DNA of 64,000 nucleotides from Candidatus Cloacimonadota bacterium (GTDB lineage: Bacteria; Cloacimonadota; Cloacimonadia; G963667145), in assembly GCA_963667255.1 (NCBI GenBank), contig OY762940.1, positions 1,079,503 through 1,143,502 on the forward strand, written 5' to 3'. The notes under the pieces are model-generated. The model worked only from the letters and a program-made list of their open reading frames with translations, did not search any database and had not been told where the DNA came from. Made by a program: the position numbers and the translations under genes. This document shows positions 17,976 to 37,732 of the stretch, piece after piece. Position 1 is the stretch's first letter. Each line of letters starts with the position of its first letter.

Positions 17976-18626
17976 CTACTCTTCTTCCAAATCTATTTCA
18001 ATTTTTAAAGATTTTATCTCGTCAATTTTCTTCAAGTTTTTGGCATAAGCCAAAATCACATCGGCAAAAGTTTTGCTGACATAGTCAATCATCGGCACGA
18101 CTTTTCCGTTGACACTCAAAGAGATTTTCATCTTGCTTTCTCTGTTGCCTTTGCACATCATTTTGAATATTTTCTCCGAATTTTTTGTGGCATCTATCAA
18201 TTTATAGTTCCCAATCTCTTGTTTTCCACTTTGTGAGCAAACTCCCGAATAACACACAATATTGCTAAAATCAATATCTTTCAAATCGGCTTCATCTTTT
18301 AGGCAAACCACTTTTTCATAATCAGAATCTTTAAAACCTTCTAAAATCAAAAAATCTGTTTTAGCTTCGTTTACGATTTTTGATAAAGACTTTTCCTCAT
18401 TGCTTACCGAAAAACAGATTTTGGGACTGCTCCCGATTACTTTGTCCGCACCTGCTTTGAGAGCTTTATCTGTATCCGTATTTTCTTCATCAAAAGTTAT
18501 ATTTTCGCAATGAATATCTTTGGCATAAGTGACCGAAAATCCTTTATTTTTCAGATTTTTAATCAAGTTGATGGAAGTTGTCGTTTTACCCGATTTACTA
18601 AACCCGCAAACATTGATAATTTTCAT
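17976..18626 (-). CDS. MobB-like P-loop protein (molybdopterin-guanine dinucleotide biosynthesis adapter family) with C-terminal extension
   Basis: N-terminal MKIINVCGFSKSGKTTT P-loop as in MobB. Confidence 0.5.
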   Translation of the reverse strand: MKIINVCGFSKSGKTTTSINLIKNLKNKGFSVTYAKDIHCENITFDEENTDTDKALKAGADKVIGSSPKICFSVSNEEKSLSKIVNEAKTDFLILEGFKDSDYEKVVCLKDEADLKDIDFSNIVCYSGVCSQSGKQEIGNYKLIDATKNSEKIFKMMCKGNRESKMKISLSVNGKVVPMIDYVSKTFADVILAYAKNLKKIDEIKSLKIEIDLEEE

Positions 18627-18762
18627 AATTTTATTCCTTTTATTCTTTGTTTAAATTCAGATTATCTCATTCAATTTCGTGAAAATACAAATTGTTTTTT
18701 CTATTATAAAAATGTAAATTTATTTCTTGACTTTAATTAGATTTTACTTGTAATTAGTTCGT

Positions 18763-19938
18763 TTGGGGGTCAGGTCAATGAATAGAAAAATCGCTTTGGA
18801 AATTTTATTGCAAAAAGTTTCCGCTTTAAATTCTTTTAAAATTAATGTCTCAAAAAGCGAAAATTGTGTTCTTGCTTCTCCCGTTTTTTCTCAAATAGAT
18901 TTACCTTCTTTTGATAAATCCGCCATGGACGGCTTTGCCATTTGTGAAGATGAAACTCAAGAAACTTTGCAAGTGGTTGATTTTACAGCTGCTGGCGAAT
19001 CTCCTTCCTCAAAACTTAGCAAAGGGAAAGCGGTTAAAATTTTGACTGGAGCACCTGTTCCTAAAAATGCTTGGAAAATTATTCCCAAAGAATTGGTTAG
19101 TGAAAATGAGAATACTATTGTTCTTAATTGTCAGCTTAAGGAAGCTCCAAACAATATTTGCTCAAAAGGCGAGGATATCCCCCAAGGGCAACTTTTGTAT
19201 CCCAAGGGGACTTTGATTGATATCCGAAAAAAAGCGACTTTGGTTTTTGCAGGAGTAAATGAGGTTGAGGTTTTTTCCAAGCCGAGAATATCGGTGATTA
19301 CCACAGGAAGCGAGGTAGTTTCCTTTGGCGATAAAAGAGGCAAATACCAAGTTTATAATGCCAATGCAGAGTTGCTTTTCGGACTTTTAAATAAAGAGTT
19401 GGACACGGCAGATTTTTCGCATGTTGCCGACGAATACTCTTTGGTGGAAGCGGAATTTAATCAAAAATTTGAGAAGTCCGATTTGTTGATTTTTACCGGT
19501 GGAGCTTCCGTAGGCAAATTTGATTATGTGAAAAAAATGCTGAAATCTTTGGGAGCGGAGGAACTTTTTTCTGGTTTGTCCATCAGACCCGCACGACCTA
19601 CAGCTTGCTATTTGTTTAAGGGCAAATTGATTTTTTCGCTTCCGGGTAATCCTGTGGCGGTTTTTTTGGCTTACCATTTGTTTGTTTTGCCTGTGATTTA
19701 CAAAATGCAGTCCAAAGTTTGTAATTTATTTAGAGAAGTAGAAATTACTGGAAAATTACAAGTTAGATTAAAAGACAGAGAAAATTTTGTTCCGATAAAA
19801 TATAATGACAAAAAAATCGAAATTCTTGATTATAACGGACCTGCGGATTTATATCATATCTCACTTGCAGATGGGTTTTTAGTCGTTCCGCCGGAAACAA
19901 AAATTGTAGAAGGCAAAGCGAAAGTTTTGCTCTTTTAA
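18763..19938 (+). CDS. moeA: MoeA-family molybdopterin molybdenum/tungsten transferase
   Basis: SAMDGFAI motif and GGASVGKFDY / SLPGNP MoeA-type motifs; start may be the ATG at 18778. Confidence 0.75.
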   Translation: MGVRSMNRKIALEILLQKVSALNSFKINVSKSENCVLASPVFSQIDLPSFDKSAMDGFAICEDETQETLQVVDFTAAGESPSSKLSKGKAVKILTGAPVPKNAWKIIPKELVSENENTIVLNCQLKEAPNNICSKGEDIPQGQLLYPKGTLIDIRKKATLVFAGVNEVEVFSKPRISVITTGSEVVSFGDKRGKYQVYNANAELLFGLLNKELDTADFSHVADEYSLVEAEFNQKFEKSDLLIFTGGASVGKFDYVKKMLKSLGAEELFSGLSIRPARPTACYLFKGKLIFSLPGNPVAVFLAYHLFVLPVIYKMQSKVCNLFREVEITGKLQVRLKDRENFVPIKYNDKKIEILDYNGPADLYHISLADGFLVVPPETKIVEGKAKVLLF

Positions 19939-19962
19939 AATAACAAAAAAATTAAGGAGGAC

Positions 19963-20910
19963 ATGATTATGTTCAAAAAATTGAAATTAGTGGCTTTGAT
20001 TTGCATTTTTGCTTTTTCGTCTCTTTTGGCTAAAGAAAGTAAGTTGGTAATTTTCCATGCGGGGAGTTTGGCTATTCCTTTGCAAAAAATGAGCGAGGCT
20101 TTTAACGAGAAGTATCCAGATGTGCAAATAATGAGAGAAGCAGCCGGTTCTCGTGTATGTGCAAGAAAAATCAGTGAGTTGAATAAAAAAGCCGATATTA
20201 TGTTTTCTGCTGATTATACGGTAATTGATGAACTTTTGATTCCTAAGTTTGCCGATTGGAACATTCATTTTGTAACCAACGAAATGGCTATTATGTTTGG
20301 TCATAATGCAAAATATGCCGATGAGATTACTGTTGAAAATTGGCCTGAAATTTTACTTCGCAAAGATGTAACTTACGGACATTCAGACCCTAATGCTGAC
20401 CCATGTGGCTATAGAAGTCAACTTGTTTGGCAATTGGCTGAAAAGTATTACAAATTACCTGGTTTGTATGAAAAATTGAGAGAAAACAATCCTATCGTGA
20501 GACCAAAAGAGACTGACTTGGTGGCTTTGTTGGAAGCCGGAACTCTTAACTATTTGTTTATCTATCGTTCTGTTGCTCAGCAACATGGAGCTAAATATTT
20601 GGTATTGCCTGATGAAATAAATTTGAAGACTGCCAAATTTGCTGATTTTTACAAACAAGCTACTTTTGATATTAGCGGCAAAAAGCCTGGGGAGTTCATT
20701 ACCAAAAAAGGTGCTCCAATGGTTTATGGATTGACTATTCCTAACAATGCGGTAAACAAAAAAATGGCTGAAAAGTTTGTAGCTTTTGTTTTGAGTGAAG
20801 AGGGAAGAAAAATTATGGAAGATTGTGGTCAACCTGCTATCGTTCCGGCAAAGATTACCGGCAAAGAAAAATCACTTCCTTCTTCTATAAAAAAATTTGT
20901 AAAAGAGTAA
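19963..20910 (+). CDS. Tungstate/molybdate ABC transporter substrate-binding protein (WtpA/ModA-like)
   Basis: Signal peptide, periplasmic binding protein pattern similar to WtpA; adjacent permease and TOBE-domain ATPase. Confidence 0.6.
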   Translation: MIMFKKLKLVALICIFAFSSLLAKESKLVIFHAGSLAIPLQKMSEAFNEKYPDVQIMREAAGSRVCARKISELNKKADIMFSADYTVIDELLIPKFADWNIHFVTNEMAIMFGHNAKYADEITVENWPEILLRKDVTYGHSDPNADPCGYRSQLVWQLAEKYYKLPGLYEKLRENNPIVRPKETDLVALLEAGTLNYLFIYRSVAQQHGAKYLVLPDEINLKTAKFADFYKQATFDISGKKPGEFITKKGAPMVYGLTIPNNAVNKKMAEKFVAFVLSEEGRKIMEDCGQPAIVPAKITGKEKSLPSSIKKFVKE

Positions 20911-20925
20911 AAACAGGAAAATCAA

Positions 20926-21696
20926 GTGAAAAAAGTTTTTATTGCTTTGGGTGCGATAATCATCTTTATGATTGTTTTTCCGATTATAAAGATTTTTTGG
21001 GGAATTGACCTTACTATTCTTAGCGATACTTTGAGAGATTCTGTGGTTTTTTCGGCAGTTTTTACTTCTTTGGAATGTTCGCTCTATGCCACACTTGCAG
21101 GATTTCTTCTGGGAATTCCGCTTGCTTACATTATCGCCAGACACAATTTTTATGGTAAAGAACTGGTTTCTTCAATTATAAATATCCCTATCGTCGTGCC
21201 ACATTCGGCGGCAGGGATAGCTCTTTTGTCGGCTTTTGCTTCTCATACTTTTTTGGGGAAAGGGCTTGCCGCACTTGGACTTACCATCATCGATACCAAG
21301 CTTGGTATAAGTTTGGGGATGTTTTTTTTGAGTGTGCCTTTTCTCATCAATCAAAGTATTGGGGGGTTTCTAAGCTATGACGAGAGAATAGAAAAATCTG
21401 CTAGAGTTTTAGGAGCTGGTTTTAGCAGAACTTTTTTTACCATCAGTTTGCCACTTGCTCGGCACGGCATCATCAAAGGTTTCATCATGATGTGGGCAAG
21501 AGGTATTTCGGAGTTCGGAGCTGTGGTCATTTTGGCTTATCATCCGCTTACAGCTTCCGTTTTGATTTTTGAAAGATTTGGAGCTTTCGGCTTGAGATAT
21601 TCCAAGCCGATTGCTTCTTTATTAATTTTAATCTGCCTGTTCATTTTTATGGTAGTGCAATTGATTTCCAATGTTAAAAATAAATCAGATAACTAA
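20926..21696 (+). CDS. ABC transporter permease (WtpB/ModB-like)
   Basis: Polytopic membrane protein with EAA-like loop region typical of ABC importer permeases. Confidence 0.7.
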   Translation: MKKVFIALGAIIIFMIVFPIIKIFWGIDLTILSDTLRDSVVFSAVFTSLECSLYATLAGFLLGIPLAYIIARHNFYGKELVSSIINIPIVVPHSAAGIALLSAFASHTFLGKGLAALGLTIIDTKLGISLGMFFLSVPFLINQSIGGFLSYDERIEKSARVLGAGFSRTFFTISLPLARHGIIKGFIMMWARGISEFGAVVILAYHPLTASVLIFERFGAFGLRYSKPIASLLILICLFIFMVVQLISNVKNKSDN

Positions 21697-22699
21697 AAAA
21701 TTTTCCCAATTTACTCTAAACGAGATAAATTTTACCATTAATAAGGGCGAATGCACCGCAATTTTGGGTCCGTCAGGTTCGGGCAAAACTATTTTGATGG
21801 AGACGATTGTCGGCATTCACAAGCAAACTTCGGGGCAACTATTCCTAAACGGCAAAGAGATTAGCCATACCAAGCCCGAAAATCGCGATATTTCGCTTTT
21901 GTATCAAAATTATATGCTTTTCCCACATCTCAATGTTTACGAAAATATAGCTTTCCCGCTAAAATTACGAAAAATTCCTGAAATTCCGCAAAAGATAAGC
22001 AAAATTGCTCATTTATTGAAGATTGAACATCTTTTGAAAAGGTCGGTTCATAACCTTTCTGGTGGAGAAAAACAGCGGGTCGCTCTTGCCAGAGCCATTA
22101 TTTTTGAACCGCAAGTTCTTCTTTTGGACGAGCCAACTTCGGCGATTGACACTCATATGAAGCGAAAAGTTCGCAAGCTAATTCGGGAAATTCACAAAAG
22201 TCTCAATCTGACTATTCTCTTGGTCACTCATTCCATTGAGGAGGCTATCTATTTGGCGGATTCTTTTGTCTTCCTAAAAGATGGTCAGCAATTACAACAA
22301 GGCAAAAAGTTTGAAGTTTTCAACAATCCCCAAAATCGTTATATCGCCAATTTTCTCGGCTATGACAATGTTTTTGAAGGAGAGGTTGAAGACGGCAAAT
22401 TTGCTATCAAAAACACCAATCTCAAAATATCTTTTTTTAAAGAAGAGATTCCCAAGTGTATTCATGTTTCGCCCGACAATATCATCATTTCCAAGGAAAA
22501 GCCCGAGAGTTCGGCAGTGAATGTTTTTGAAGGAACATTGCAAGATTTTGCTTTCAAAGGCAGTTTCTATCAATTGTTTTTCGACATCGGAGTGGAAATT
22601 TTGGTAAATATCACAGATGCCTCATTCGAAAATCTCCAACCAAAACTCGGCACCAAATTTTATCTATCATTCAAAGAAAGAGGAGTGAAGGGGTTTTAG
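21671..22699 (+). CDS. ABC transporter ATP-binding protein with C-terminal TOBE-like domain (WtpC/ModC-like)
   Basis: Walker A GPSGSGKT, signature LSGGEKQR, Walker B LLLDEPTSAID, about 110 aa C-terminal extension. Confidence 0.75.
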   Translation: MLKINQITKKFSQFTLNEINFTINKGECTAILGPSGSGKTILMETIVGIHKQTSGQLFLNGKEISHTKPENRDISLLYQNYMLFPHLNVYENIAFPLKLRKIPEIPQKISKIAHLLKIEHLLKRSVHNLSGGEKQRVALARAIIFEPQVLLLDEPTSAIDTHMKRKVRKLIREIHKSLNLTILLVTHSIEEAIYLADSFVFLKDGQQLQQGKKFEVFNNPQNRYIANFLGYDNVFEGEVEDGKFAIKNTNLKISFFKEEIPKCIHVSPDNIIISKEKPESSAVNVFEGTLQDFAFKGSFYQLFFDIGVEILVNITDASFENLQPKLGTKFYLSFKERGVKGF

Positions 22700-22708
22700 G
22701 AAATAAAA

Positions 22709-22716
22709 TAATTTAA
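22709..22716. repeat. Target-site duplication (left copy) TAATTTAA
   Basis: Identical 8-mer directly abuts the outer ends of both inverted repeats. Confidence 0.65.
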
Positions 22717-22733
22717 GGTTCAAGATAACTTGA
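22717..22733. repeat. IS left terminal inverted repeat GGTTCAAGATAACTTGA
   Basis: Perfect 17-bp reverse complement of 23437-23453. Confidence 0.8.
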
Positions 22734-22763
22734 CAAGTGAATTATACTAGTTAAGTTGTTGAT

Positions 22764-23450
22764 ATGCCAATAAGAAACAAGTACGTAAAAAACTCCAAAA
22801 TTTCTGAAGAAAAATTTAGAGAAATAATTAAGTTTTTTTCTTTGGATATTGAGGCTAGTAAAATAGCACTTTTGACCAAAATTAGTAGAAAAACAGTTAA
22901 CAATTATTTACTTAAAATTAGAGAGAGAATTGCTGAATTTTGTTGTGAGGATTCTCATCTTTCTGGAATAATTGAAGTTGATGAATCTTACTTTGGAGCG
23001 AAAAGAGTTAAGGGGAAACGAGGACGAGGTGCTGGAGGTAAAATTAAAGTTTTCTGATTGCTCAAAAGAGGCGACAAAGTTTACACTCAAATGGTTGATA
23101 ATTGTAGCAGAAAGACATTACAAGCGATAATAAAAGAAAGGATAGAAAAGGGTAGTGAAATTCACTCTGATGGATGGAAAGCTTATAATGGATTGGTTGA
23201 TTTAGGATACCAAAAACACTATAGAGTTGACCATTCGAGCAATGAATTTGCCAATAAAAATGGACATATTAATGGGATTGAGAACTTTTGGGGAATAGCA
23301 AAATTGAGACTAACAAAATTTAAAGGAATTCATAAAAATATGTTCTATTTACACTTAAAAGAATGTGAATTTAGGTTTAATCATAGAAAGCAAAATTTAT
23401 ATAAAATTTTGCTAAAAATGTTCCGAAATAATCCGCTCAAGTTATCTTGA
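22764..23450 (+). pseudogene. IS1595-family (ISXO2-like) DDE transposase interrupted by a single in-frame TGA (23055-23057) at a conserved Gly position
   Basis: Translations ...IIEVDESYFGAKRVKGKRGRGAGGKIKVF*LLKRGDKVYTQ...SEIHSDGWKAYNGL...HYRVDHS...NGIENFWG... match the family pattern ETYFGGKRKGKRGRGA-GK-VFG-LER-G-V; stop replaces the G of VFG. Confidence 0.7.
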
Positions 23451-23453
23451 ACC
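23437..23453. repeat. IS right terminal inverted repeat
   Basis: Reverse complement equals GGTTCAAGATAACTTGA. Confidence 0.8.
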
Positions 23454-23461
23454 TAATTTAA
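23454..23461. repeat. Target-site duplication (right copy) TAATTTAA
   Basis: Identical to 22709-22716. Confidence 0.65.
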
Positions 23462-23471
23462 ATATTTTGAA

Positions 23472-23500
23472 TTGACAGATTTTAATTTAAAGTGTTTATA
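23472..23500 (+). promoter_or_regulatory. Sigma70-like promoter candidate for the HerA-NurA-MTase operon
   Basis: TTGACA, 17-nt spacer ending in TG, then TTTATA; about 37 nt upstream of the ATG at 23538, with gagg RBS in between. Confidence 0.3.
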
Positions 23501-23537
23501 GGTATTTGTTTTTTCCAAAATTTTAATTGAGGTTTAG

Positions 23538-25781
23538 ATGAGTATAGAACAAAGTATAATTTCTAGGCGAGAAAGTGATAAGAAAGTTGAAACCCAACAA
23601 TGGTTTCAAAAACTTATACAAACAAGCGAATATGTTGGTGATTTGTATTCTATCAACTATGAAACCGCAAGAGTAATAATTCATGATTTCTATAGAGAGA
23701 AAGTCGGAGGAATTCCAAGCTTAAGTTTTTTAATTGCCTCAAGAGTTGACCCCAATAATTCAGAAATTGATTTTAAAACAGAGGATGCATCATTTATTCT
23801 TTTAAGAGTAATGGATGCTATAGCGCTTCCGCAGGATAGAGAGGCAGAAAGAATTAGAGTTGAAACAGCACAAAGAATAAGTGGTGAAACTGAAAAAAAT
23901 TGGGATGAAGCAGGTTCAATGGATTTAAGAACAAAAAATCTGTTAAGTTTTGCTGGTGTTCAGTGCAGAATAATTGGAACATTTTATCTCGAAGAAAATG
24001 GAGAAAATGGAGAAGCACCACTTAATTTAAAATTTGGTAGTGATATTTCAAATTATTATCCAAACAGAGGATTAAAAGTTTATAAACCAAACGGGAAGGC
24101 TCTTGAGTTAATAGTAAATTATTCTGATCCTTCAAATATTCAAGCACACATTGAAAAATATGGAAACACAGAAAATGTAAAATTGGGTTTTGTAAGATAT
24201 GCTTCAACAAATAGAAAATATCAACAAATTAGTGATGTCCCTGTTTATATTTATCCAGCAGACCTTCTATCTCAAAAATCTGCCTTGTTTGGAATGACAA
24301 GGACAGGAAAATCCAATACGACTAAAATAATTGCAAAATCTGTTTTTGAATTACGAAATGCACAACGGTCTGGAGAAAATCCATTAAGAATTGGACAAAT
24401 AATTTTTGATCCCAACGGTGAATATGCCAATGAAAATGTTCAAGATAGGGACGGTAGCGGTAATCCAAATGCATTAAAAAATATTTGGCGAAAAGACGAA
24501 ACTTTAAGAAATATTGCTGATAAGCTGAAACAACAATATATTCAAGAAACAGAAATCGAAGAAAAGAAAAGATTATGGAATGAAATAAAATCATTGGTTG
24601 AAACAGAGGTGGTTACATATGGTATTTTACCACATCCACTAGACCCATTTCGTAGATTAATGAAAATAAACTTTTATGAAGAAGACAATCTTCAAATAGG
24701 TAAAGAAATCATTGATTTTAAAATTGCGGAGCAGTCAGCTCAGTATATTAAAAATTTTCGACAAGTTGTTTTCAAAAGACCAGTAGAAGATGAATACGAG
24801 AATGAGGTTGAATTTAATGGACAATTAAGGCGTTTTGAGAGAAGAGTTCTTGTTTATTGTGCATTGCTAAATAAAGCAGGTTTTAATCCACCGTTTCGAA
24901 CAGTTAATATTTCAAGAATGTTTAATGCTGACCTAAGAAATGCTATGATTAACTATTCTGAAAAAAAATTTACACGTAAACAAGGATTAATAAATGCAGC
25001 GGGTCAAACTCTGTCACAAACAAATGTAACCTGGGATAGTCTTGCACCTGCTTTTGAAGGTTTGTTCCATTTCCTTTCAACTGCTGATTACAATACATTC
25101 AACCAAGATTACATAAATAATCATCGTGATGATGAGAATGAGGATGCTACAGGAGAAGGTTGGGCTGAAGCAGAACTTGAAAGTTTGTTGGAAATGTTTA
25201 ATTATTCAAAAGCTATTAATCTAATTGGTGGTGTAAATACACAACATACAACATCAATAAGAACAGATTACGCCGAAGATATTTATAATGATTTAACTGA
25301 AGGGAAACTTGTTATTATTGACCAATCAAGTGGTGAGCCAGAACTAAACAAGTCTTCAGCAAATAGAATAATGTGGCATATTTTTAAAGCTAACCAAAGT
25401 GCATTTCGAGAGGGTGAGAAATTAATTCCCGAAATATTGGTTTATGTGGAGGAAGCTCATAATATATTACCAGCTGGTAATGATTTAGATTTAACCGATG
25501 TTTGGGTTAGGACAGCAAAGGAAGGTTCAAAATATAGAATTGGGATGGTTTACGCAACCCAAGAAGTAAGTAGTATTCAAAGAAATATTTTAAAAAATAC
25601 AGCGAATTGGTTTATAAGCCATTTAAACAATACTGATGAAACCAAAGAACTATGCAAGTACTATGATTTTGAAGACTTTGAGCCATCAATAAGGCGAGCA
25701 CAGGATAAGGGTTTTTTAAGAGTTAAAACTTTAAGCAATCTGTTTGTAATTCCAGTTCAGGTTGACAAATTTGAAGTCTAA
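23538..25781 (+). CDS. HerA/DUF87-like (FtsK-HerA superfamily) ATPase with about 250-aa N-terminal domain of unknown type
   Basis: Walker A GMTRTGKS (about aa 252), Walker B of hhhh-EEAH type ILVYVEEAH (about aa 637), downstream ATQ motif RIGMVYATQEV typical of HerA-family ATPases. Confidence 0.6.
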   Translation: MSIEQSIISRRESDKKVETQQWFQKLIQTSEYVGDLYSINYETARVIIHDFYREKVGGIPSLSFLIASRVDPNNSEIDFKTEDASFILLRVMDAIALPQDREAERIRVETAQRISGETEKNWDEAGSMDLRTKNLLSFAGVQCRIIGTFYLEENGENGEAPLNLKFGSDISNYYPNRGLKVYKPNGKALELIVNYSDPSNIQAHIEKYGNTENVKLGFVRYASTNRKYQQISDVPVYIYPADLLSQKSALFGMTRTGKSNTTKIIAKSVFELRNAQRSGENPLRIGQIIFDPNGEYANENVQDRDGSGNPNALKNIWRKDETLRNIADKLKQQYIQETEIEEKKRLWNEIKSLVETEVVTYGILPHPLDPFRRLMKINFYEEDNLQIGKEIIDFKIAEQSAQYIKNFRQVVFKRPVEDEYENEVEFNGQLRRFERRVLVYCALLNKAGFNPPFRTVNISRMFNADLRNAMINYSEKKFTRKQGLINAAGQTLSQTNVTWDSLAPAFEGLFHFLSTADYNTFNQDYINNHRDDENEDATGEGWAEAELESLLEMFNYSKAINLIGGVNTQHTTSIRTDYAEDIYNDLTEGKLVIIDQSSGEPELNKSSANRIMWHIFKANQSAFREGEKLIPEILVYVEEAHNILPAGNDLDLTDVWVRTAKEGSKYRIGMVYATQEVSSIQRNILKNTANWFISHLNNTDETKELCKYYDFEDFEPSIRRAQDKGFLRVKTLSNLFVIPVQVDKFEV

Positions 25782-25792
25782 ATTGAGTTAAT

Positions 25793-27160
25793 ATGGGGTT
25801 TGAAGGAGAATTTGCCAGTTATGAGCCATTAAGGCGAATGCTTGATAGTGATAAAGTTAAATCACTACAAGACAGACTGAAAATACGAAAACAAGAAGAA
25901 GAAACAGATACTTTCACTGGCTCAATTGTTAAAAAGTCAGACTTGACTGAAAGCTCAATACAACCTGATTTAGTTTTAGCAATTGATGGAAGCAATTTGG
26001 CGGCTAAAGCTGAAAGTGGATTTCCGGGTGCTGAATTTGGATATATTACAATAGCTTCTGTTTTAATAGATTTAAAACTTATTGATGATTTAGAAAAGAA
26101 ACAGTTTATTGACCCCAAAAAGGTTAGAGAAACAGAAAAAGCATCGACAATAGAAAGTGTCTTCCCCGGTTGCAATGTAATTTTGGACACAGAAAAAAAT
26201 GCAAATGCTTCACTTCGAAGAGCATTATTTGAAGAATTAAAATGTAACACAATATTTGCTAACGGTGGAGAAACATTATTGGATACTTATGAATACCTCT
26301 TCAGAATAAAGAGAGAGCATTTCTCTGAAAGCCGTCTTCCAAGAAGCCCTATTGATGGTATTGATAAAGAAATGACTTATGGATACGATGAATATCCTTG
26401 TCCTCATTCAGGAGAGCCATTATATTCAACTGATGCTTTGCGTTTACATGAATTAATGAATCCTGGTGGTAGTAATGGTGAAATGTTTGGGCAAATAATG
26501 TCAACTCTTGAAAAGGTATGGTTGGTTCATATACTCAGAGCATTTGAACAAAAAGAATGGTTATCAACCCTTCGGAGAGTAGCATTTATTATGGATGGAC
26601 CATTAGCTGTATTTAGTACTTCATCTTGGTTGACAAAAGTTATTAATTATGAATTAAATAGGCTAAATGAATTGCAGAAAGCAGTTAACGGTCAGGATTT
26701 ATTAATTATCGGTATTGAAAAATCAGGAACATTCGTAAATCATTTCGAAGAAATTGATACGACTAAAGATGGAGTTACAGATAAATTTCCAAAACAATCA
26801 GCATTACTGCTTGACGATGGCTATATAAAAAGAAATATTATTTTTTCTGAAAGCATAAAACCATATGGTCAAGACACTTATTTTGGAAGAAAAATATTTT
26901 ATAAAACTGCTTCTGGACAAAAAATAGTTCCAGTAATTGCATGTTATAATGACCAACAAAGAAATACCTCAACAGCAAATCCAAATCAATTTTCAAGGCT
27001 TTCAGATGTTATGAATTTGCTTGATAAATTGGTTTCAAGTAGATATCCAAATTCCGTTTCTCCTTTAGTATCTGCTCATGCAGAAGCAGCAATTCCTTTA
27101 AATTTAGGTAAACGGATATTTGAGGATATTGCAAGAGAAATAAGAGAAAAATCAAATTGA
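25793..27160 (+). CDS. NurA-like nuclease
   Basis: N-terminal LVLAIDGS motif, central IIGIEKSG motif, C-terminal His (SAHAEAA) consistent with NurA D-E-D-H layout; 11-nt gap to upstream gene. Confidence 0.5.
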   Translation: MGFEGEFASYEPLRRMLDSDKVKSLQDRLKIRKQEEETDTFTGSIVKKSDLTESSIQPDLVLAIDGSNLAAKAESGFPGAEFGYITIASVLIDLKLIDDLEKKQFIDPKKVRETEKASTIESVFPGCNVILDTEKNANASLRRALFEELKCNTIFANGGETLLDTYEYLFRIKREHFSESRLPRSPIDGIDKEMTYGYDEYPCPHSGEPLYSTDALRLHELMNPGGSNGEMFGQIMSTLEKVWLVHILRAFEQKEWLSTLRRVAFIMDGPLAVFSTSSWLTKVINYELNRLNELQKAVNGQDLLIIGIEKSGTFVNHFEEIDTTKDGVTDKFPKQSALLLDDGYIKRNIIFSESIKPYGQDTYFGRKIFYKTASGQKIVPVIACYNDQQRNTSTANPNQFSRLSDVMNLLDKLVSSRYPNSVSPLVSAHAEAAIPLNLGKRIFEDIAREIREKSN

Positions 27161-28287
27161 TGATTACAAAGGAAAAGATATTAAAAGGTTATAAAACCGC
27201 GGAGGCTCGATGGGCAAGATTTGGTCCATATTATGCCATGTTTCCTTTGGATTTTGCATTTGAGGTTGTTGAGAAATACTCAAAAAAAGGTGATTACATA
27301 CTTGACCCTTTTGCAGGTAGATGTAGCAGTATCTATGCTGGTGGTGTGCTTGGTCGAGTTAGCTTAGGTATTGAAATTAATCCCGTAGGCTGGCTCTTTG
27401 GGAAAGTAAAATTAGAACCTGCAGATAAGGAAGATGTAATTGACCGTTTACTTGAAATTTATGGTAAGCGAAATTATTATAGATGCTCAACTAAAAAATT
27501 ACCAGAATTTTATAGGATATGTTATAGCGATGAAGTCCTAAAATTCCTATTAGCAGCGAGAGCAAATCTTGACTGGATAAATAATGACATTGATGCAACT
27601 CTTATGTCAATTCTTTTGGTTTACTTACATGGTAAATTAGGAGAATGTTTGTCAAATCAAATGAGAATGACAAAGTCAATGGGAATGAACTATTCTGTTG
27701 AATGGTGGAAAAAAAATGGACTAACAAAACCACCTGAAATTAATCCCTTTGAATTCATTCTTAAAAAGATTGAATGGAGATATGAAAAAGGGACACCAAA
27801 TGTTACTGAAAGTGCAGTTGTATTTGGTGATAGTTCTAATCAATTAATCAACATTTCAGAGAGAGCCATTCAAAATGATATTAAATTTTCGCTTCTGTTT
27901 ACATCTCCACCATATTATTCAATCACAGATTACCATGCAGACCAGTGGCTGAGATTATGGCTGTTAGGAGGTTCAGAAAATCCGCAATCATTAAAAGACA
28001 AACATAAAGGAAGATTTGTAAACAAAGTTGATTACTACAATTTACTTGATACTGTATTTGAACTTAGTTCACGAATGATGGACGAAAGGAGTACAATTTA
28101 TGTCAGGACAGACAAGCGTGAATTTACTTTTAATTCTACTTTAGAGATTTTAAACAAGCATTTTCCAAATTATAAAACAAAGATTATTGAAAAGCCTTTA
28201 ACTAAAGACACCAAGACTCAGACAAAATTATTTGGTGACAAATCAATGAAGCCTGGAGAAGTTGATATAATATTACAAATAGAATAA
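27157..28287 (+). CDS. DNA methyltransferase (N6-adenine or N4-cytosine type)
   Basis: AdoMet motif I ILDPFAGRCSS followed by GRVSLGIEINP; catalytic motif IV FTSPPYY about 200 aa downstream; start overlaps upstream stop (ATGA). Confidence 0.6.
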   Translation: MMITKEKILKGYKTAEARWARFGPYYAMFPLDFAFEVVEKYSKKGDYILDPFAGRCSSIYAGGVLGRVSLGIEINPVGWLFGKVKLEPADKEDVIDRLLEIYGKRNYYRCSTKKLPEFYRICYSDEVLKFLLAARANLDWINNDIDATLMSILLVYLHGKLGECLSNQMRMTKSMGMNYSVEWWKKNGLTKPPEINPFEFILKKIEWRYEKGTPNVTESAVVFGDSSNQLINISERAIQNDIKFSLLFTSPPYYSITDYHADQWLRLWLLGGSENPQSLKDKHKGRFVNKVDYYNLLDTVFELSSRMMDERSTIYVRTDKREFTFNSTLEILNKHFPNYKTKIIEKPLTKDTKTQTKLFGDKSMKPGEVDIILQIE

Positions 28288-28324
28288 TTAGCTGTTTTTT
28301 AAGAAATAGTTGTATAATTCTTTT

Positions 28325-28987
28325 TCACTCCCCAACCACTCTCATCTCATAATTTCCCAAATCAGCGAGCAAGATTTTATTTAATAGTTTCGGCTTTCTC
28401 CAAACCACATTTATAACTTCGTCGGCTATCAAACTGCCAATAAACATCACGGATTGCGGGCAGATAGCACGGGAAATAGCATTGTCATCTTTTCTTTTGT
28501 ATAGCTCGTCCAAGCTTAAAAAATCGCTTTCTCCGTGAAAAGTGGCGACTTGCCCGTATTTTTTTTCTACCGCTCCATGCACCAAGAAATTTTGTTTGCC
28601 GACCAATTTTTGAATTTGTTTTTTGGTTGCAAAGCCGTCCACACAATCCACAAAGCAATCAGATGAGTGGATTTCGCTTGTTTTGTTTATATCTTGCAAA
28701 TGGCAATAAATTTGGCAGTCGGGATTTATTTGGCTCAATTTGGCAAAAGCAGTTTCCGTTTTGAGTTTGCCGATATCTTGGCTATCATACAAAAGCTGTC
28801 TGCCAATGTCGGAATCATTGATTTTGCCGTTGTCGTATAGATGGAAATTTTGCACTCCAGCACGAATTAAAACTTGCAAAACACTGCAACCAAGTCCGCC
28901 CAAGCCGAAAATGCTAATCTTACAATTTTTCAAAATTTCTTGTTTTTCTTTGCCCCAGAGCATCTCGTTTCTACTGAAAAAATTCAT
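28325..28987 (-). CDS. ThiF/MoeB-family E1-like adenylyltransferase
   Basis: Rossmann motif IFGLGGLGCSV near N-terminus, about 220 aa; plausible MoaD partner of the W/Mo cofactor locus. Confidence 0.65.
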   Translation of the reverse strand: MNFFSRNEMLWGKEKQEILKNCKISIFGLGGLGCSVLQVLIRAGVQNFHLYDNGKINDSDIGRQLLYDSQDIGKLKTETAFAKLSQINPDCQIYCHLQDINKTSEIHSSDCFVDCVDGFATKKQIQKLVGKQNFLVHGAVEKKYGQVATFHGESDFLSLDELYKRKDDNAISRAICPQSVMFIGSLIADEVINVVWRKPKLLNKILLADLGNYEMRVVGE

Positions 28988-29134: not shown

Positions 29135-30340
29135 ATGGAAGGTAAAGTTTTAGTTGCACAGGGAGGAGGTCCTACCGCTGTGATTAATCAGTCGCTGGTA
29201 GGAGTGGTTTTGGAGTCTCGCAAATTCCCTCAAGTTACCAGAGTGTATGGCTCTCTTAATGGTTTGGAAGGCATAGTAAACGAGAATTTTTTGGATTTGA
29301 CTCAAGAAACTACTCACAATTTGGAACAAGTTGCCTTGACGCCTTCTTCCGCATTATTGTCCACCAGAATCAAACCTGATGCAGCTTATTGTAAGAAGAT
29401 TTTTGCAGTGCTAAAAAAATATAATATTCGCTATTTCTTCTATATCGGAGGCAACGATTCGTCTGATACCGTGAGAATAGTGAAAGAAGAGGCTGTGAAA
29501 GATGGTTACGATTTCAGGGCAATTCATATTCCCAAGACTATCGACAACGATTTGGTCGGCAATGATCATTCTCCAGGTTACGGCTCTGCTGCCCGCTTTG
29601 TTGCTCAGGCTTTTATGGGAGTCAATTTGGACAACAAGGCTTTGCCAGGAGTTTACATAGGCGTAATAATGGGTCGTCATGCGGGCTGGCTCACCGCTGC
29701 CTCCAGTTTGGCTCAAAAGTATCCCGATGATGGTCCGCACTTGATATATTTGCCGGAGAGAGCCTTTGATAAGCAAAAGTTTATTGGGGATATAAAGGCT
29801 GTTTATGCGAAATTCGGTCGCTGTGTGGTGGCTGTTTCCGAGGGCATCGTTGATAAGGATGGCATAGAGATTATTACCAAGTTGATGACAAATCAGGAGT
29901 GTGATGCACACGGCAATGTGCAGTTGTCGGGAACAGGAGCTTTGGGCGATTTGTTGGCTGAGTATGTTAGGAAAAATACGGATATTTCCCGAGTGAGAGC
30001 GGACACTTTCGGCTATCTGCAAAGGTCTTTTTATGGATGTGTTTCCGATGTTGACCAGAGTGAAGCCAGAGAAATTGCCGAGAGAGCTGTGCAATTTGCC
30101 ATTTGGCACAAAGAGGATGGCTCTATGAGTATTCAGAGAACAGGGTTTTATTCTGTGGATTACAAGCTAATTCCTATCGAGGAAGTTGCTGGCAAGACAA
30201 GAAAAGTCCCAGATTATTATATAAACGAAAAAGGGAATAATGTTACCGAAGAGCTGAAATACTATTTGCGACCTCTTGTCGGTTCAGGGTTTCAACTACC
30301 TAATCGTTTGAGAGCTCCGAGAGTGGAAAAAATTTTATGA
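29135..30340 (+). CDS. Phosphofructokinase family protein, probably PPi-dependent (Pfp-like)
   Basis: PFK fold motifs [25 protein letters not shown]; GGNDS in place of GGDGS (Asp at the position that discriminates PPi from ATP enzymes). Confidence 0.65.
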   Translation: MEGKVLVAQGGGPTAVINQSLVGVVLESRKFPQVTRVYGSLNGLEGIVNENFLDLTQETTHNLEQVALTPSSALLSTRIKPDAAYCKKIFAVLKKYNIRYFFYIGGNDSSDTVRIVKEEAVKDGYDFRAIHIPKTIDNDLVGNDHSPGYGSAARFVAQAFMGVNLDNKALPGVYIGVIMGRHAGWLTAASSLAQKYPDDGPHLIYLPERAFDKQKFIGDIKAVYAKFGRCVVAVSEGIVDKDGIEIITKLMTNQECDAHGNVQLSGTGALGDLLAEYVRKNTDISRVRADTFGYLQRSFYGCVSDVDQSEAREIAERAVQFAIWHKEDGSMSIQRTGFYSVDYKLIPIEEVAGKTRKVPDYYINEKGNNVTEELKYYLRPLVGSGFQLPNRLRAPRVEKIL

Positions 30341-31449
30341 GGCAAACCATGAAAAAAAAATGTTTGGTTGTAACAGGTGGCGGTGACTGCCCGGGTTTGA
30401 ATGCGGTTATCAGAGCGATAGTAAAGCGTGCCGATAGTGAGCCAGACTGGGAAATCTGGGGTAGCATGGATGCGTATAATGGTGTTTTGCAACAGCCTTG
30501 GCGGCTTATCAGATTGGACAAGAAAAAGGTTTCCGGTATTCATGTGCAGGGTGGCACTATTTTGGGAACTACCAACAAAGGTGGTCCTTTCGGATTTCCT
30601 GTGAAAAATTCCGACGGAGAGATTGTTTTGGAAGATAGGTCAGATTTGATGATTAGAGAGCTGAAAGAGGCTGGATTTGAGGCAGTTATCAGTATTGGCG
30701 GTGACGGCTCACAAACTATAAGCCAAAAGCTTTTTGAAAAAGGCTTGAATATGGTTGGTGTGCCGAAGACTATCGACAACGATTTGTCTTGCACCGACTA
30801 CACTTTTGGGTTCTCCACCGCTGTAGATGTGGCGACAGATGCGATAGACAAATTGGTAACGACCGCTGCGTCTCATCATCGTGTTTTGATTTTGGAAGTT
30901 ATGGGCAGATATGCTGGTTGGATTGCTTTGCACAGTTCGTTGGCAGCCGGAGCGGAAATCTGTTTAATTCCCGAGATACCTTACGATTTGGAGATTGTGA
31001 AGAATAAAATCAAAGAGCGGACAGAGAGGAAAGGGTTCTTGATTTTGGTAGTTGCCGAGGGTGCGAAGCCCAAAGATGGCGACATTTTCAGCAAAAAAAG
31101 CGAAGAGGTTGGGCATGAACAAAATGTTTTGGGTGGAATAGGTTTGCAATTGGAAAAATTGTTTAGCTCTGACCCCACAATAACAGCGGATGTTCGCACC
31201 TCTGTGCTTGGGCACTTGCAACGCGGAGGCAGACCGAGTGCTTTTGACCGCAATCTTGCCACACAATTTGGCGTGAAAGCGTTTGAGATGGTGCTGAATA
31301 AAGAGTTTGGCAAAATGGTGGTGGTCAATCACAAGAAAATGGAGTCCGTGAGCCTGAAAGAAGCAATCTCAACTTACAATTTGGTGGATAAAAACTCCGA
31401 TATGATTAAGACCGCTAGAGGTGTGGGGATTTGCTTCGGAGACGAATAA
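30337..31449 (+). CDS. pfkA: ATP-dependent 6-phosphofructokinase
   Basis: [35 protein letters not shown] motifs. Confidence 0.8.
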
Positions 31450-35356: not shown

Positions 35357-37732
35357 ATGAAAATTTCTTTGAAATGGTTAAGACAGTTTATTGATTTCGA
35401 CCTTACGATAGATGAGTTTACCGACAAATTAACTTTTTCTGGTATAGAGGTGGAAGAGGTTATTGATACTCAGACAACCATCAAAGATATTATTGTTGGC
35501 AAGATTGTCAAAGCGGAAAAACATCCCGATGCGGAAAAGTTAAAAGTTTGCACAGTTTTCGACGGGAAAGCTGAACATCAAGTCGTGTGTGGAGCACCCA
35601 ATTGTCGTGAAGGCTTACTATCGGCTTTTGCTCCTGTCGATGCAGTAATCGGCGACATCAAGATAAAGAAGGCTAAACTCAGAGGATTGGAATCTTGCGG
35701 TATGCTTTGCAGTAGCAAAGAGCTATCCATCGACAGCGACCACAGTGGCATAATGGAATTGCCCGAAGATGCTGTTGTTGGCTCGCCTTTGTCAGCTTTA
35801 GGTTATGGAGATATTGTTGTCGATGTGGAGATTACGCCCAATAGACCGGATTTATTGGGAATGGTTGGTCTTGCACGCGATATTGCTGCTATTCTCGGCA
35901 AGCCTTACAAAAAGCCGGAAACAAGCGATGTAAAGTTTACTGCGGGGGAATTGCCGTGTGGGATTAAGCTGATTAATAATGTTCCTGAGGCTTCTCCGAG
36001 ATTCATTTTGTCCGAGATTAACGGCGTGACCGTCAGCAAGAAAATGCCTTTTTGGATGAGCACCGCTCTTGATTCTAACGGGGTCAATAAGGTTAGCGAC
36101 TTGGTTGGTGTTACCAACTATCTGCTTTTGGAGCAGGGTCAGCCTATGCACGCTTACGATATGGACAAAATTGAGGGTGGAATTATTGAGGTTCGCTTTG
36201 CTAAAAAAGGCGAGAAAATCGAGGCTCTCAACGGTAAGACTTATGAACTTCGGGAGACAGATTTGGTCATTGCCGATGCCGTCAAAGTCCTCAGTATAGC
36301 CGGTGTTATCGGTGGTAAGTCGTCAGCAATTAGTTTGGAAACCAAAAATGTTCTGTTGGAGATAGGGAATTTTTCTTATCCGTTCATTCATAAAACTTCT
36401 CATCATTTCAAGATTTTTACAGATGCTTCTTACCGATGTGAGAGGGATTTGTCGCCAAAGGCTTTGGGAGAAGTTTTGCCCCGAGCAACCGAGATGATGG
36501 CTCAAGTCGGCAAGGGCAAATTTCAGACTGTTTATGCTGATTCTTGTCCCGAGACAAAAGAGGATATTGTGGTTTCTTTGCGACCATCGAGAGTTCGCAA
36601 ATTTCTCAATGTTGAAATTTCCGACAAAAAAATTATCTCTTATTTAACCGATTTGGAGATTAAACTATTGTCTGAAAAAGAAGATTTGTTGGAATTTTCC
36701 GTGCCGTATTTTAGAGGAGATATTTATCGTGAAGCGGATTTGATAGAGGAAATTATCAGACTGCACGGATATAACAATGTCCCCTCGTTTATCAATAATC
36801 AAGTGATTGGCGATAGATTTAAGAGGGAAATTAAGCGGAAAACCGAAGATTTCCTTGTTCTGAATGGATTTTATCAAGCAATTAATACCAGTTTTGTCAG
36901 CGAAGATTTGAGTAGTGGGATAGTGGACAAACCGATTGTTGAGCTTATTAATCCTCTCGGTGCTGATATGGCTTTTATGCGTCGCGAGTTGCTCCCGCAA
37001 TTGCTCAAAAATGTGGAACTCAATCTGAATAAGGGTCAAGAGATTGTTAAGCTGTTTGAGTTGAACAAGGTCTATTTTGCCAAAGAAGATGGATTTGCTC
37101 ACGAGCCTTTGCAGTTGGCTATGGTTGCTTGCGGCAAAACCGAAAAAATGCATTGGATGAACAGCGGACACGATTATGGTATTTACGAATTGAAAGGGAT
37201 TTTGGAAGACTATTTGGATTTTCTCGGAGAGGACGATTACAAATATGCTATCTCTCAAAGTGAAACTGTGTTCGAGCCTTCTTGCAGTTTGGATTTGGAG
37301 ATTAAGGGGCAAAAATTGGTTAGCTTGGGAAGAGTGAAGAAAGCAATTACAAAGAAATTCGGTATTAAAAAAGATGTTTTTGCTTTGATTTTTGATTTTG
37401 AGAAATCTTTGTCATTGTTTGCTGATAAGAGTTTTCAGTTTGCTTTGCCACAAAAATATCCGTCTGTGAAGAGGGATTTGTCCATTGTTATCGATTTGAA
37501 ATACTCTTATGAGGAGATAAAGAAGGCGATAGAGAAAAGTTCCGCTTTTATCCAATCGGTTGAACTTTATGACAAATACGAAGGTAAGGGGATAGACCAA
37601 GAGAAGAGAAGTTTGACATTTGCTCTGAATTTCTTTTCAAAAGAAAAAACCTTGACCGATAGTTTGGTAGCGGAAGACTTTGATAAGATAGTTTGTGAGT
37701 TGCAAGAGAGTTTTGGTGCTAAACTCAGATGA
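35357..37732 (+). CDS. pheT: Phenylalanine--tRNA ligase beta subunit
   Basis: N-terminal MKISLKWLRQFIDFDLTIDEF, tRNA-binding domain, 791 aa. Confidence 0.9.
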   Translation: MKISLKWLRQFIDFDLTIDEFTDKLTFSGIEVEEVIDTQTTIKDIIVGKIVKAEKHPDAEKLKVCTVFDGKAEHQVVCGAPNCREGLLSAFAPVDAVIGDIKIKKAKLRGLESCGMLCSSKELSIDSDHSGIMELPEDAVVGSPLSALGYGDIVVDVEITPNRPDLLGMVGLARDIAAILGKPYKKPETSDVKFTAGELPCGIKLINNVPEASPRFILSEINGVTVSKKMPFWMSTALDSNGVNKVSDLVGVTNYLLLEQGQPMHAYDMDKIEGGIIEVRFAKKGEKIEALNGKTYELRETDLVIADAVKVLSIAGVIGGKSSAISLETKNVLLEIGNFSYPFIHKTSHHFKIFTDASYRCERDLSPKALGEVLPRATEMMAQVGKGKFQTVYADSCPETKEDIVVSLRPSRVRKFLNVEISDKKIISYLTDLEIKLLSEKEDLLEFSVPYFRGDIYREADLIEEIIRLHGYNNVPSFINNQVIGDRFKREIKRKTEDFLVLNGFYQAINTSFVSEDLSSGIVDKPIVELINPLGADMAFMRRELLPQLLKNVELNLNKGQEIVKLFELNKVYFAKEDGFAHEPLQLAMVACGKTEKMHWMNSGHDYGIYELKGILEDYLDFLGEDDYKYAISQSETVFEPSCSLDLEIKGQKLVSLGRVKKAITKKFGIKKDVFALIFDFEKSLSLFADKSFQFALPQKYPSVKRDLSIVIDLKYSYEEIKKAIEKSSAFIQSVELYDKYEGKGIDQEKRSLTFALNFFSKEKTLTDSLVAEDFDKIVCELQESFGAKLR

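What the first reader, a model, noticed from the sequence alone, without database searches (positions are those of the whole stretch)
22709..23461. IS1595-family element with perfect TIRs and 8-bp target duplication, but transposase broken by a single TGA at a conserved glycine
Intact ends (17-bp perfect inverted repeats, TAATTTAA duplicated on both flanks) indicate a recent insertion. The transposase reading frame is otherwise intact apart from one in-frame TGA exactly where family members have Gly (VF-G-LLERGG). The simplest explanation is a recent GGA to TGA nonsense mutation. A less likely alternative is origin from a lineage that reads TGA as Gly; every other Gly in the ORF uses GGN, which argues against it.
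Basis: seen in the sequence. Interest (0 to 1): 0.45.

Follow-up and report, generated by a model that had tools for sequence, protein, structure and literature searches.

The report
Broken IS1595/IS1016-type insertion sequence copy
This is an ordinary small jumping gene (an insertion sequence of the IS1595 family, IS1016 type) whose ends are intact but whose transposase gene was switched off by a single-base change that created a stop codon, with no sign of an unusual genetic code.

Summary
Window 22717-23453 is a 737-bp IS with perfect 17-bp terminal inverted repeats and an 8-bp target duplication (TAATTTAA). It has one transposase ORF (22764-23450) that scores as a full-length IS1595-family transposase. 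The ORF is interrupted only by TGA at 23055-23057, where at least 117 of 118 relatives have Gly.

- The closest intact relatives (75-81% aa) read GGA or GGT at that codon.
- They share the same ends and terminate on the same TGA embedded in the right repeat, so TGA is a stop for this element lineage.
- The host also uses TGA as a stop (11 of 50 long ORFs, including full-length PheT).
- A positive control from a genuinely TGA-recoded genome (L078) encodes Gly with 12 TGA against 4 GGN. The window copy has 1 TGA against 16 GGN.
- No non-recoded relative has a stop at this codon, and no RNA structure follows it.
- About 15% of relatives carry in-frame stops, so broken copies are common.

Nothing else in the ORF is degraded, so the lesion is probably young. 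A base-call error cannot be excluded without reads. Interest is low. The IS is an unnamed new member of a known group.

The parts
22709..22716 (.). Left copy of the 8-bp target-site duplication, TAATTTAA
   Evidence: Read directly. It is identical to 23454-23461 and abuts the left inverted repeat.
22717..23453 (+). The complete insertion sequence, 737 bp, 30.3% GC (window average 38.7%)
   Evidence: It is bounded by the inverted repeats. Relatives L082, L083 and L085 have paired ends 737, 737 and 736 bp apart.
22717..22733 (+). Left terminal inverted repeat (IRL), GGTTCAAGATAACTTGA
   Evidence: The same end, with one T/C difference, is found in relatives L082 and L085.
22764..23450 (+). Transposase reading frame, 228 codons plus stop, interrupted at codon 98. 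As it stands it encodes a 97-aa N-terminal product (22764-23057).
   Evidence: ORF list. NCBIfam NF033547 at 176 bits over the full model length. PF12762.
22980..22982 (+). Codon for D73, the first catalytic Asp (EVDESYFG). It lies upstream of the premature stop.
   Evidence: Invariant column. The motif matches the IS1016-subgroup signature quoted in PMC12561309.
23055..23057 (+). In-frame TGA at codon 98, in place of a conserved Gly (KVF-G-LLKRG)
   Evidence: Relatives have GGA (L082) or GGT (L083, L085) here. Across loci, 79 of 86 alignments show GGN.
23169..23171 (+). Codon for D136, the second catalytic Asp (HSDGW). It lies downstream of the premature stop.
   Evidence: Invariant column.
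23280..23303 (+). Codons E173 to K180 (ENFWGIAK), carrying the third catalytic residue and the conserved Lys seven residues later (DDEK). They lie downstream of the premature stop.
   Evidence: E173 and K180 are invariant columns. The HINGIENFW..AK signature is quoted.
23437..23453 (-). Right terminal inverted repeat (IRR)
23448..23450 (+). Natural stop codon of the transposase, a TGA lying inside the right inverted repeat
   Evidence: The same TGA at the same place ends the ORFs of L082, L083 and L085, whose proteins also end in ...PLKLS.
23454..23461 (.). Right copy of the 8-bp target-site duplication, TAATTTAA
   Evidence: The same junction is present in an independent short-read assembly, L081.

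Best explanation
This is a defective copy of an insertion sequence of the IS1595 family, IS1016 subgroup; it is the only copy detected.

How such an element works (established knowledge of DDE insertion sequences): a DDE(K) transposase binds the two short terminal inverted repeats and inserts the element at a staggered cut in an A/T-rich 8-bp target. Repair of the stagger produces the 8-bp duplication.

What is shown here: the element inserted in the 93-bp spacer between the tungstate-transporter ATPase gene wtpC and a HerA-like gene. Its ends and duplication are intact.

What is inferred: a single G-to-T change at 23055 turned Gly98 (GGA) into TGA. Translation therefore stops after 97 residues. 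That product keeps the N-terminal DNA-binding region and the first catalytic Asp (D73), but lacks D136, E173 and K180. The copy cannot move by itself. With intact ends it could still be moved by a matching transposase supplied in trans, but none was found. The lesion is probably young, because nothing else in the ORF or the ends has decayed. The truncated N-terminal protein might still bind the ends; this is speculation and was not tested.
For: - Family and anatomy. The IS1016-type signature (EVDESYFG, HINGIENFWGIAK, KECEFRFN), A/T-rich 8-bp duplications and a size near 712 bp are described for ISApl4 in PMC12561309.
- Ancestral state: the closest intact relative, L082/P0001 (81% aa), has GGA at the codon. 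L083 and L085 have GGT. GGA is the element's commonest Gly codon (10 of 16) and is one step from TGA.
- TGA is a stop here. It ends this ORF and those of three relatives, inside the right repeat. It also ends 11 of 50 long host ORFs, including PheT, which matches its family model full-length. No long host ORF needs TGA read as sense.
- The stop is not recurrent. Among 86 alignments spanning the codon, the only other TGA is in L078, a genome-wide TGA-recoded organism.
- Broken copies are common in this family: 14 of 86 alignments have in-frame stops, L085 has a 1-nt deletion, and PMC12561309 reports single IS1016 copies with premature stops in Moraxella.
- TGA falling on a Gly is no coincidence needing explanation: 11 of the 38 one-step routes to TGA in this ORF start from GGA.
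- The lesion looks young: the TGA is the ORF's only deviation at columns conserved in at least 117 of 119 sequences.
- An independent short-read assembly (L081) reproduces the right end, the duplication and the flank exactly.
Against: - No reads could be inspected, and the independent assembly L081 starts at 23384, so it does not cover the TGA. A base-call error is not excluded.
- No sister copy or empty site was recovered to date the mutation. The sister genome L086 is not syntenic to the left of moeB.
- The complete lack of other decay fits a very recent mutation, but it fits a sequencing error or a tolerated codon equally well.
- Whether the source genome holds further copies outside the window could not be checked.
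Confidence: 0.82

Rival explanations
1. Sequencing or assembly error: the true sequence is GGA (or another sense codon) and the element is an intact, active IS.
For: - The ORF is otherwise flawless. It has no other deviation at highly conserved columns, and the ends and duplication are perfect.
- The only independent assembly found (L081) does not cover the position.
Against: - A substitution in a non-homopolymer context is an uncommon consensus error.
- The contig names (ctg...c / ...l) and the megabase-size single contigs of this project suggest an accurate long-read assembly. This is an inference only.
- L081 agrees with the window at every one of its 5,284 bases that were compared or translated.
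- Real in-frame stops occur in about 15% of relatives, so no error is needed to explain one.
Confidence: 0.1
2. Leaky or programmed decoding: the TGA is read through at a low level (near-cognate tRNA or termination-reinitiation at the adjacent TTG). A little transposase is made and transposition is self-limited.
For: - UGA is generally the leakiest stop codon in bacteria (established knowledge).
- The codon after the TGA is TTG, a possible start.
- The rest of the ORF shows no decay.
Against: - No non-recoded relative has a stop at this codon, so the feature is not conserved.
- No stable RNA structure follows the TGA (z = +1.29; 184 of 200 shuffles fold at least as well).
- The base after the stop is U, a context that favours efficient termination in E. 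coli (established knowledge; not tested for this host).
- The TTG is simply the conserved Leu99 codon, present in the intact relatives too.
- Reinitiation would split the catalytic triad, with D73 on one polypeptide and D136/E173 on the other.
- Read-through would put a non-Gly residue at a nearly invariant Gly.
Confidence: 0.05
3. Foreign-code relic: the element came from a lineage that reads TGA as Gly (genetic code 25, Gracilibacteria/Absconditabacteria), and the TGA is an original Gly codon.
For: - The TGA sits exactly on a conserved Gly.
- IS1595-family copies do exist in TGA-recoded genomes, and L078 has TGA at this very codon.
- The IS is more AT-rich than its host, 30.3% against 38.7% GC.
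Against: - The recoded control L078 uses 12 TGA against 4 GGN. The window copy uses 1 TGA against 16 GGN.
- The element's own stop codon is TGA, fixed inside the right repeat and shared with standard-code relatives.
- The closest relatives (75-81% aa) carry GGA or GGT at the site and were called as full 228-aa proteins without recoding. L078 is only 49% identical.
- The host uses TGA as a stop.
Confidence: 0.02

Closest known systems
IS1016 subgroup of the IS1595 family (for example ISApl4 of Actinobacillus pleuropneumoniae, 712 bp; PMC12561309)
   Same: - It is a very small single-ORF IS (737 bp here, 712 bp for ISApl4) with short perfect terminal repeats that begin with GG.
- It makes A/T-rich 8-bp duplications. 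ISApl4 targets include TTAATTTA and TTTAATTA; the target here is TAATTTAA.
- It carries the catalytic signature E-DESYFG ... HINGIENFW..AK ... KECEFRFN (compared).
- Single copies with premature stops are reported for the group.
   Different: - The terminal sequence is GGTTCAAGATAACTTGA, not GGGGCTGTACTAGA.
- The spacings between motifs differ by 1-2 residues.
- The host is an uncultured lineage distantly related to Cloacimonadota, not a Pasteurellaceae, Neisseria or Moraxella species.
- No direct sequence comparison with ISApl4 or with ISfinder entries was possible here.
Unnamed 737-bp relatives in metagenome assemblies (P0001/L082, P0004/L083 = GCA_002880655.1 contig NIWG01001599.1, and P0125 from Desulfobacteraceae bacterium 4572_130)
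   Same: - They share 75-81% aa identity with the window element.
- They have the same length, and the same ends apart from a T/C difference at position 10.
- They have the same TGA stop inside the right repeat.
- L082 has an 8-bp A/T-rich duplication, AAAAATAT.
   Different: They have an intact Gly98 codon (GGA or GGT). L085 is broken in a different way, by a 1-nt deletion upstream.
Annotated IS1595-family transposases in cultured bacteria (Trichlorobacter lovleyi plasmid NZ_CP058410.1; ISAcra1 of Acinetobacter; the Francisella tularensis SCHU S4 copy)
   Same: They show full-length tblastn matches and are annotated as IS1595-family transposases.
   Different: Identity is only 61%, 45% and 49% respectively, so this element would count as a new IS under the usual naming thresholds (from memory: ISfinder requires more than 95% aa identity for the same IS).

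Membership tests
IS1595 family | The transposase matches the family profile above the curated cutoff over its full length | tested here: met
   NF033547 scores 176.4 bits (cutoff 75) over model positions 1-215 of 215. PF12762 scores 101.4 bits (cutoff 27). The match requires reading through the TGA.
IS1595 family | DDE-type catalytic residues, with a conserved basic residue seven positions after the third (DDEK here) | tested here: met
   D73, D136, E173 and K180 are invariant columns in the 14-sequence alignment that includes the window.
IS1595 family | Short terminal inverted repeats | tested here: met
   17 of 17 bp match, and these are the only two matches in the window.
IS1595 family | 8-bp target-site duplication | tested here: met
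   TAATTTAA lies on both flanks. Relative L082 has AAAAATAT.
IS1595 family | A single uninterrupted transposase ORF (an autonomous element) | tested here: not met
   TGA at codon 98 splits the frame into 97-aa and 130-aa ORFs. The copy belongs to the family by descent but is defective.
IS1016 subgroup | Length about 700-745 bp (range recalled from ISfinder and Siguier et al. 2009; ISApl4 is 712 bp per PMC12561309) | tested here: met
   This element is 737 bp, and its relatives are 736-737 bp.
IS1016 subgroup | Signature E-DESYFG ... HINGIENFW..AK ... KECEFRFN | tested here: met
   EVDESYFG (71-78), HINGIENFWGIAK (168-180) and LHLKECEFRFN (196-206) are present in the translation. The signature is as quoted.
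IS1016 subgroup | Terminal sequence of the GGGGCTG... type | tested here: not met
   The ends are GGTTCAAG...; ISApl4 ends are GGGGCTGTACTAGA. Only the leading GG is shared. This places the element in a separate branch, or at the margin of the subgroup.
IS1016 subgroup | Sequence identity to named ISfinder members | not testable with these tools
   ISfinder is not available. The best annotated hits are 45-61% identical.
Element from a TGA=Gly (code 25) lineage | Many in-frame TGA codons at Gly positions | tested here: not met
   The window copy has 1 TGA against 16 GGN. The recoded control L078 has 12 TGA against 4 GGN, with 10 of its in-frame stop symbols opposite Gly.
Element from a TGA=Gly (code 25) lineage | TGA is not used as the gene's stop codon | tested here: not met
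   The ORF ends on TGA at 23448-23450, at the same C-terminus (...PLKLS) as its relatives.
Element from a TGA=Gly (code 25) lineage | The surrounding genome reads TGA as sense | tested here: not met
   Long host ORFs have no internal TGA, and 11 of 50 end on TGA. In L078 the longest ORF rises from 114 to 914 aa when TGA is read as sense.
Programmed recoding (read-through or selenocysteine) | The stop codon is conserved at the site among relatives | tested here: not met
   No non-recoded relative has a stop at codon 98.
Programmed recoding (read-through or selenocysteine) | A stimulatory RNA structure just downstream of the stop | tested here: not met
   MFE is -8.6 kcal/mol against a shuffle mean of -11.9, z = +1.29.

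The most novel reading that the evidence does not exclude
The TGA is not a dead end. It is decoded at a low level in this host (for example by near-cognate read-through), so the element keeps a trickle of transposase as a self-limiting control. Alternatively, it is the footprint of a passage through a TGA=Gly (code 25) bacterium, which would document IS traffic across a genetic-code boundary.
Probability: 0.03. Interest if true: 0.55.

Novelty: new member of a known kind. Interest (0 to 1): 0.1.

Why it matters
It matters little beyond annotation. The locus should be annotated as an IS1595-family (IS1016-like) element with a pseudogenised transposase, not as two small genes and not as evidence of codon reassignment. 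The one general lesson is methodological. An in-frame TGA on a conserved Gly invites a 'code 25' reading. That reading can be settled quickly by three checks: the element's own stop codon, the host's stop usage, and a genuinely recoded relative as a positive control. The IS is at most 82% identical at the protein level to anything in a collection of about 15 billion proteins, so it would receive a new name, but it behaves like its group.

Tried and rejected
1. Recurrent TGA. P0128 (130 aa) starts at exactly the residue after the disputed codon, which suggested a second element with the same stop. Its DNA (L085) shows an intact GGT and a 1-nt deletion upstream; the gene caller merely restarted at the conserved TTG. 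Rejected.
2. Other copies.
   - The end sequence occurs only twice in the window, and tblastn finds no second transposase there.
   - A 38-nt probe around the codon, with N at the mutated base, found nothing in the metagenome or viral collections.
   - A search with the C-terminal fragment found only the window's own 119-aa fragment (P0142); the next hit is 82% identical.
   - Exact look-ups of the 97-, 130- and 119-aa fragments and of P0142 returned no positions.
3. Empty site. The sister genome (L086; PheT 86% identical) is not syntenic to the left of moeB, so it gives no pre-insertion sequence.
4. Subfamily end probe. GGTTCAAGAYAACTTGACA in metagenomes gave two solitary matches with no transposase and no partner repeat (L089, L090), which are uninformative. 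It gave none in viral contigs.
5. Promoter and terminator scan. Hits were at chance level, 6 against 4.6 expected. The single 'terminator' is the right inverted repeat itself.
6. Multi-copy inference from the break of Logan contig L081 inside the IS. This is weak, because the contig's other end also breaks inside an ordinary gene.

Full report
**Observation**

GGTTCAAGATAACTTGA occupies 22717-22733, and its perfect reverse complement occupies 23437-23453. With up to three mismatches allowed, these are the only two matches in the 64-kb window, against 0.35 expected by chance. TAATTTAA abuts both ends, at 22709-22716 and 23454-23461. The element is therefore 737 bp with an 8-bp target duplication.

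One reading frame runs from ATG 22764 to TGA 23448-23450. It is interrupted once, by TGA at 23055-23057, which gives ORFs of 97 and 130 aa. Read through the TGA, the 228-aa product is a full-length IS1595-family transposase. It matches NCBIfam NF033547 at 176 bits (cutoff 75) over model positions 1-215 of 215, and Pfam PF12762 at 101 bits.

**Is the TGA on a conserved Gly?**

Yes. All 13 close relatives aligned have Gly there (KVF-G-L). In a 119-sequence alignment the column is Gly in at least 117 sequences. Across the 85 loci fetched at that point, 79 of 86 tblastn alignments spanning the site have GGN.

**Which genetic code applies?**

- *Host.* Long ORFs in the window contain no internal TGA, and several stop on one. 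Of 50 long ORFs, 29 end in TAA, 11 in TGA and 10 in TAG. One of the TGA-terminated genes is PheT, which matches its family model end to end and has the same length as its orthologues. The host therefore reads TGA as stop.
- *The element itself.* Its natural stop is a TGA embedded in the right inverted repeat. The three closest relatives whose DNA was retrieved (L082, L083, L085) end their ORFs on the same TGA, at the same ...PLKLS C-terminus.
- *Positive control.* One distant relative (L078, 49% identical, from a MAG labelled Candidatus Peribacteria) does carry TGA at this codon. Its whole locus is TGA-recoded: the longest ORF is 114 aa under code 11 and 914 aa with TGA as sense. Its copy has 12 TGA against 4 GGN, and 10 of its in-frame stop symbols lie opposite Gly in the query. 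The window copy has 16 GGN and 1 TGA.

A code-25 origin is therefore rejected.

**Is the stop a conserved, possibly functional feature?**

No. No non-recoded relative has a stop at this codon. A tempting lead turned out to be false. P0128 is a 130-aa protein from another element that begins at the very next residue. Its element (L085) is a frameshifted copy with a 1-nt deletion upstream and an intact GGT codon. The 91 nt around and after the TGA fold no better than shuffled sequence (z = +1.29). The TTG that follows the TGA is simply the conserved Leu99 codon, present in intact relatives too.

**What most likely happened**

The nearest intact relative (L082/P0001, 81% aa) has GGA at the site. 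GGA is also the element's commonest Gly codon, and it is one transversion away from TGA. In this ORF, 11 of the 38 one-step routes to TGA start from a GGA codon, so TGA landing on a Gly needs no special explanation.

Broken copies are common in this family:
- 14 of 86 alignments carry in-frame stops.
- L085 is frameshifted.
- The ISApl4 paper reports single IS1016-type copies with premature stops in Moraxella (PMC12561309).

Apart from the TGA, the window ORF has no private deviation at any column conserved in at least 117 of 119 sequences. The ends and the duplication are perfect. The lesion, and probably the insertion too, is therefore young, though neither can be dated.

**Consequence**

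The 97-aa product retains the N-terminal DNA-binding region and D73, but lacks D136, E173 and K180. The copy is non-autonomous. Its intact ends would allow mobilisation in trans, but no helper was found. There is no second copy in the window. Nothing more than 82% identical exists in the protein collection, except the window's own 119-aa fragment P0142. No near-identical DNA turned up in the metagenome or viral collections.

**Comparison with known families**

Size (737 bp), single ORF, A/T-rich 8-bp duplication, the DDEK tetrad and the motifs EVDESYFG / HINGIENFWGIAK / KECEFRFN all match the IS1016 subgroup of the IS1595 family as described for ISApl4. The terminal sequence differs, GGTTCAAG... 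against GGGGCTG..., so the element sits on a separate branch. That branch shares ends and length with unnamed elements in metagenome assemblies. Annotated relatives in cultured bacteria are 45-61% identical.

**Context**

The IS lies 10 nt after the stop of wtpC, the tungstate ABC transporter ATPase. It lies 76 nt before a HerA-like/NurA/methyltransferase block. This sits inside a molybdopterin/tungsten gene cluster of an uncultured bacterium. The source contig is 1.59 Mb, and its PheT is only about 40% identical to named Cloacimonadota. An independent short-read assembly (L081, run SRR34447527) reproduces the right end, the duplication and the flank exactly, but it begins at 23384 and does not reach the TGA.

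**What remains open**

Reads could not be inspected, so a base-call error (about 10% in my estimate) is not excluded. The rest of the source genome could not be searched for further copies. No empty site was found.

**Verdict**

This is an ordinary, recently inactivated IS copy and a new, unnamed member of a known group. Interest is low.

Noticed in passing
window 23538-28287: A low-GC block (32.7% against 38.7% for the window) encodes a HerA-like DUF87 ATPase, a NurA-domain protein and a type II-like DNA methyltransferase. It sits between wtpABC and moeB, so it interrupts a molybdopterin/tungsten gene cluster. The HerA-like protein clusters at 90% identity or more with WP_320022214.1 from an uncultured Draconibacterium (Bacteroidota), which suggests recent horizontal transfer of a defence-type island. 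The IS lies at its left edge.
   Followed up: partly
window, whole; PheT at 35357-37732: The host appears to be a little-known lineage. PheT is 86% and 68-69% identical to proteins on five other single contigs of 1.54-1.58 Mb, but only about 40% identical to named Candidatus Cloacimonadota. This looks like a clade of small, possibly complete, genomes.
   Followed up: partly
L078:3001-3624 and whole locus: A MAG labelled 'Candidatus Peribacteria' is clearly TGA-recoded: the longest ORF is 114 aa under code 11 and 914 aa with TGA as sense. Its IS1595-family copy uses 12 TGA for Gly, and it also has two in-frame TAA, so that copy may itself be decayed. The taxonomic label and the apparent code may deserve a check.
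   Followed up: partly
L085:2661-3396: A sister element (736 bp) in an ENA metagenome contig is inactivated by a 1-nt deletion in the EVDESYFG-coding stretch. The gene caller then restarts at the conserved TTG (Leu99), producing a 130-aa 'protein' that mimics the window's downstream ORF.
   Followed up: yes
L082 (contig ena:ERZ21869602:ctg86224c, 28,975 bp): The closest intact relative of the IS lies on a 29-kb contig whose name ends in 'c', which in some long-read assemblers marks a circular contig. Several variant transposase sequences are recorded from a contig of that same length. It could be a small plasmid or phage carrying the element.
   Followed up: no
L086:1-3782 compared with window 18000-28987: The closest sister genome is syntenic with the window from moeB rightwards (PFK genes, infC, pheST, RNase Y). 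To the left of moeB it has unrelated genes (aldose epimerase, SnoaL, acetyltransferase, FAD-dependent protein). The moeB boundary is therefore a rearrangement or variable point in this lineage.
   Followed up: partly
window 29135-31449: Two phosphofructokinase genes lie in tandem, one of the pyrophosphate-dependent type (NF010675, 483 bits) and one of the ATP-dependent type (NF002872, 347 bits).
   Followed up: no
L081:1 (= window 23384): The Logan short-read contig from run SRR34447527 ends inside the IS, about 70 nt from its right end. This could reflect a repeat or variant in the sample, but the contig's other end also breaks inside an ordinary gene, so it is weak evidence.
   Followed up: partly
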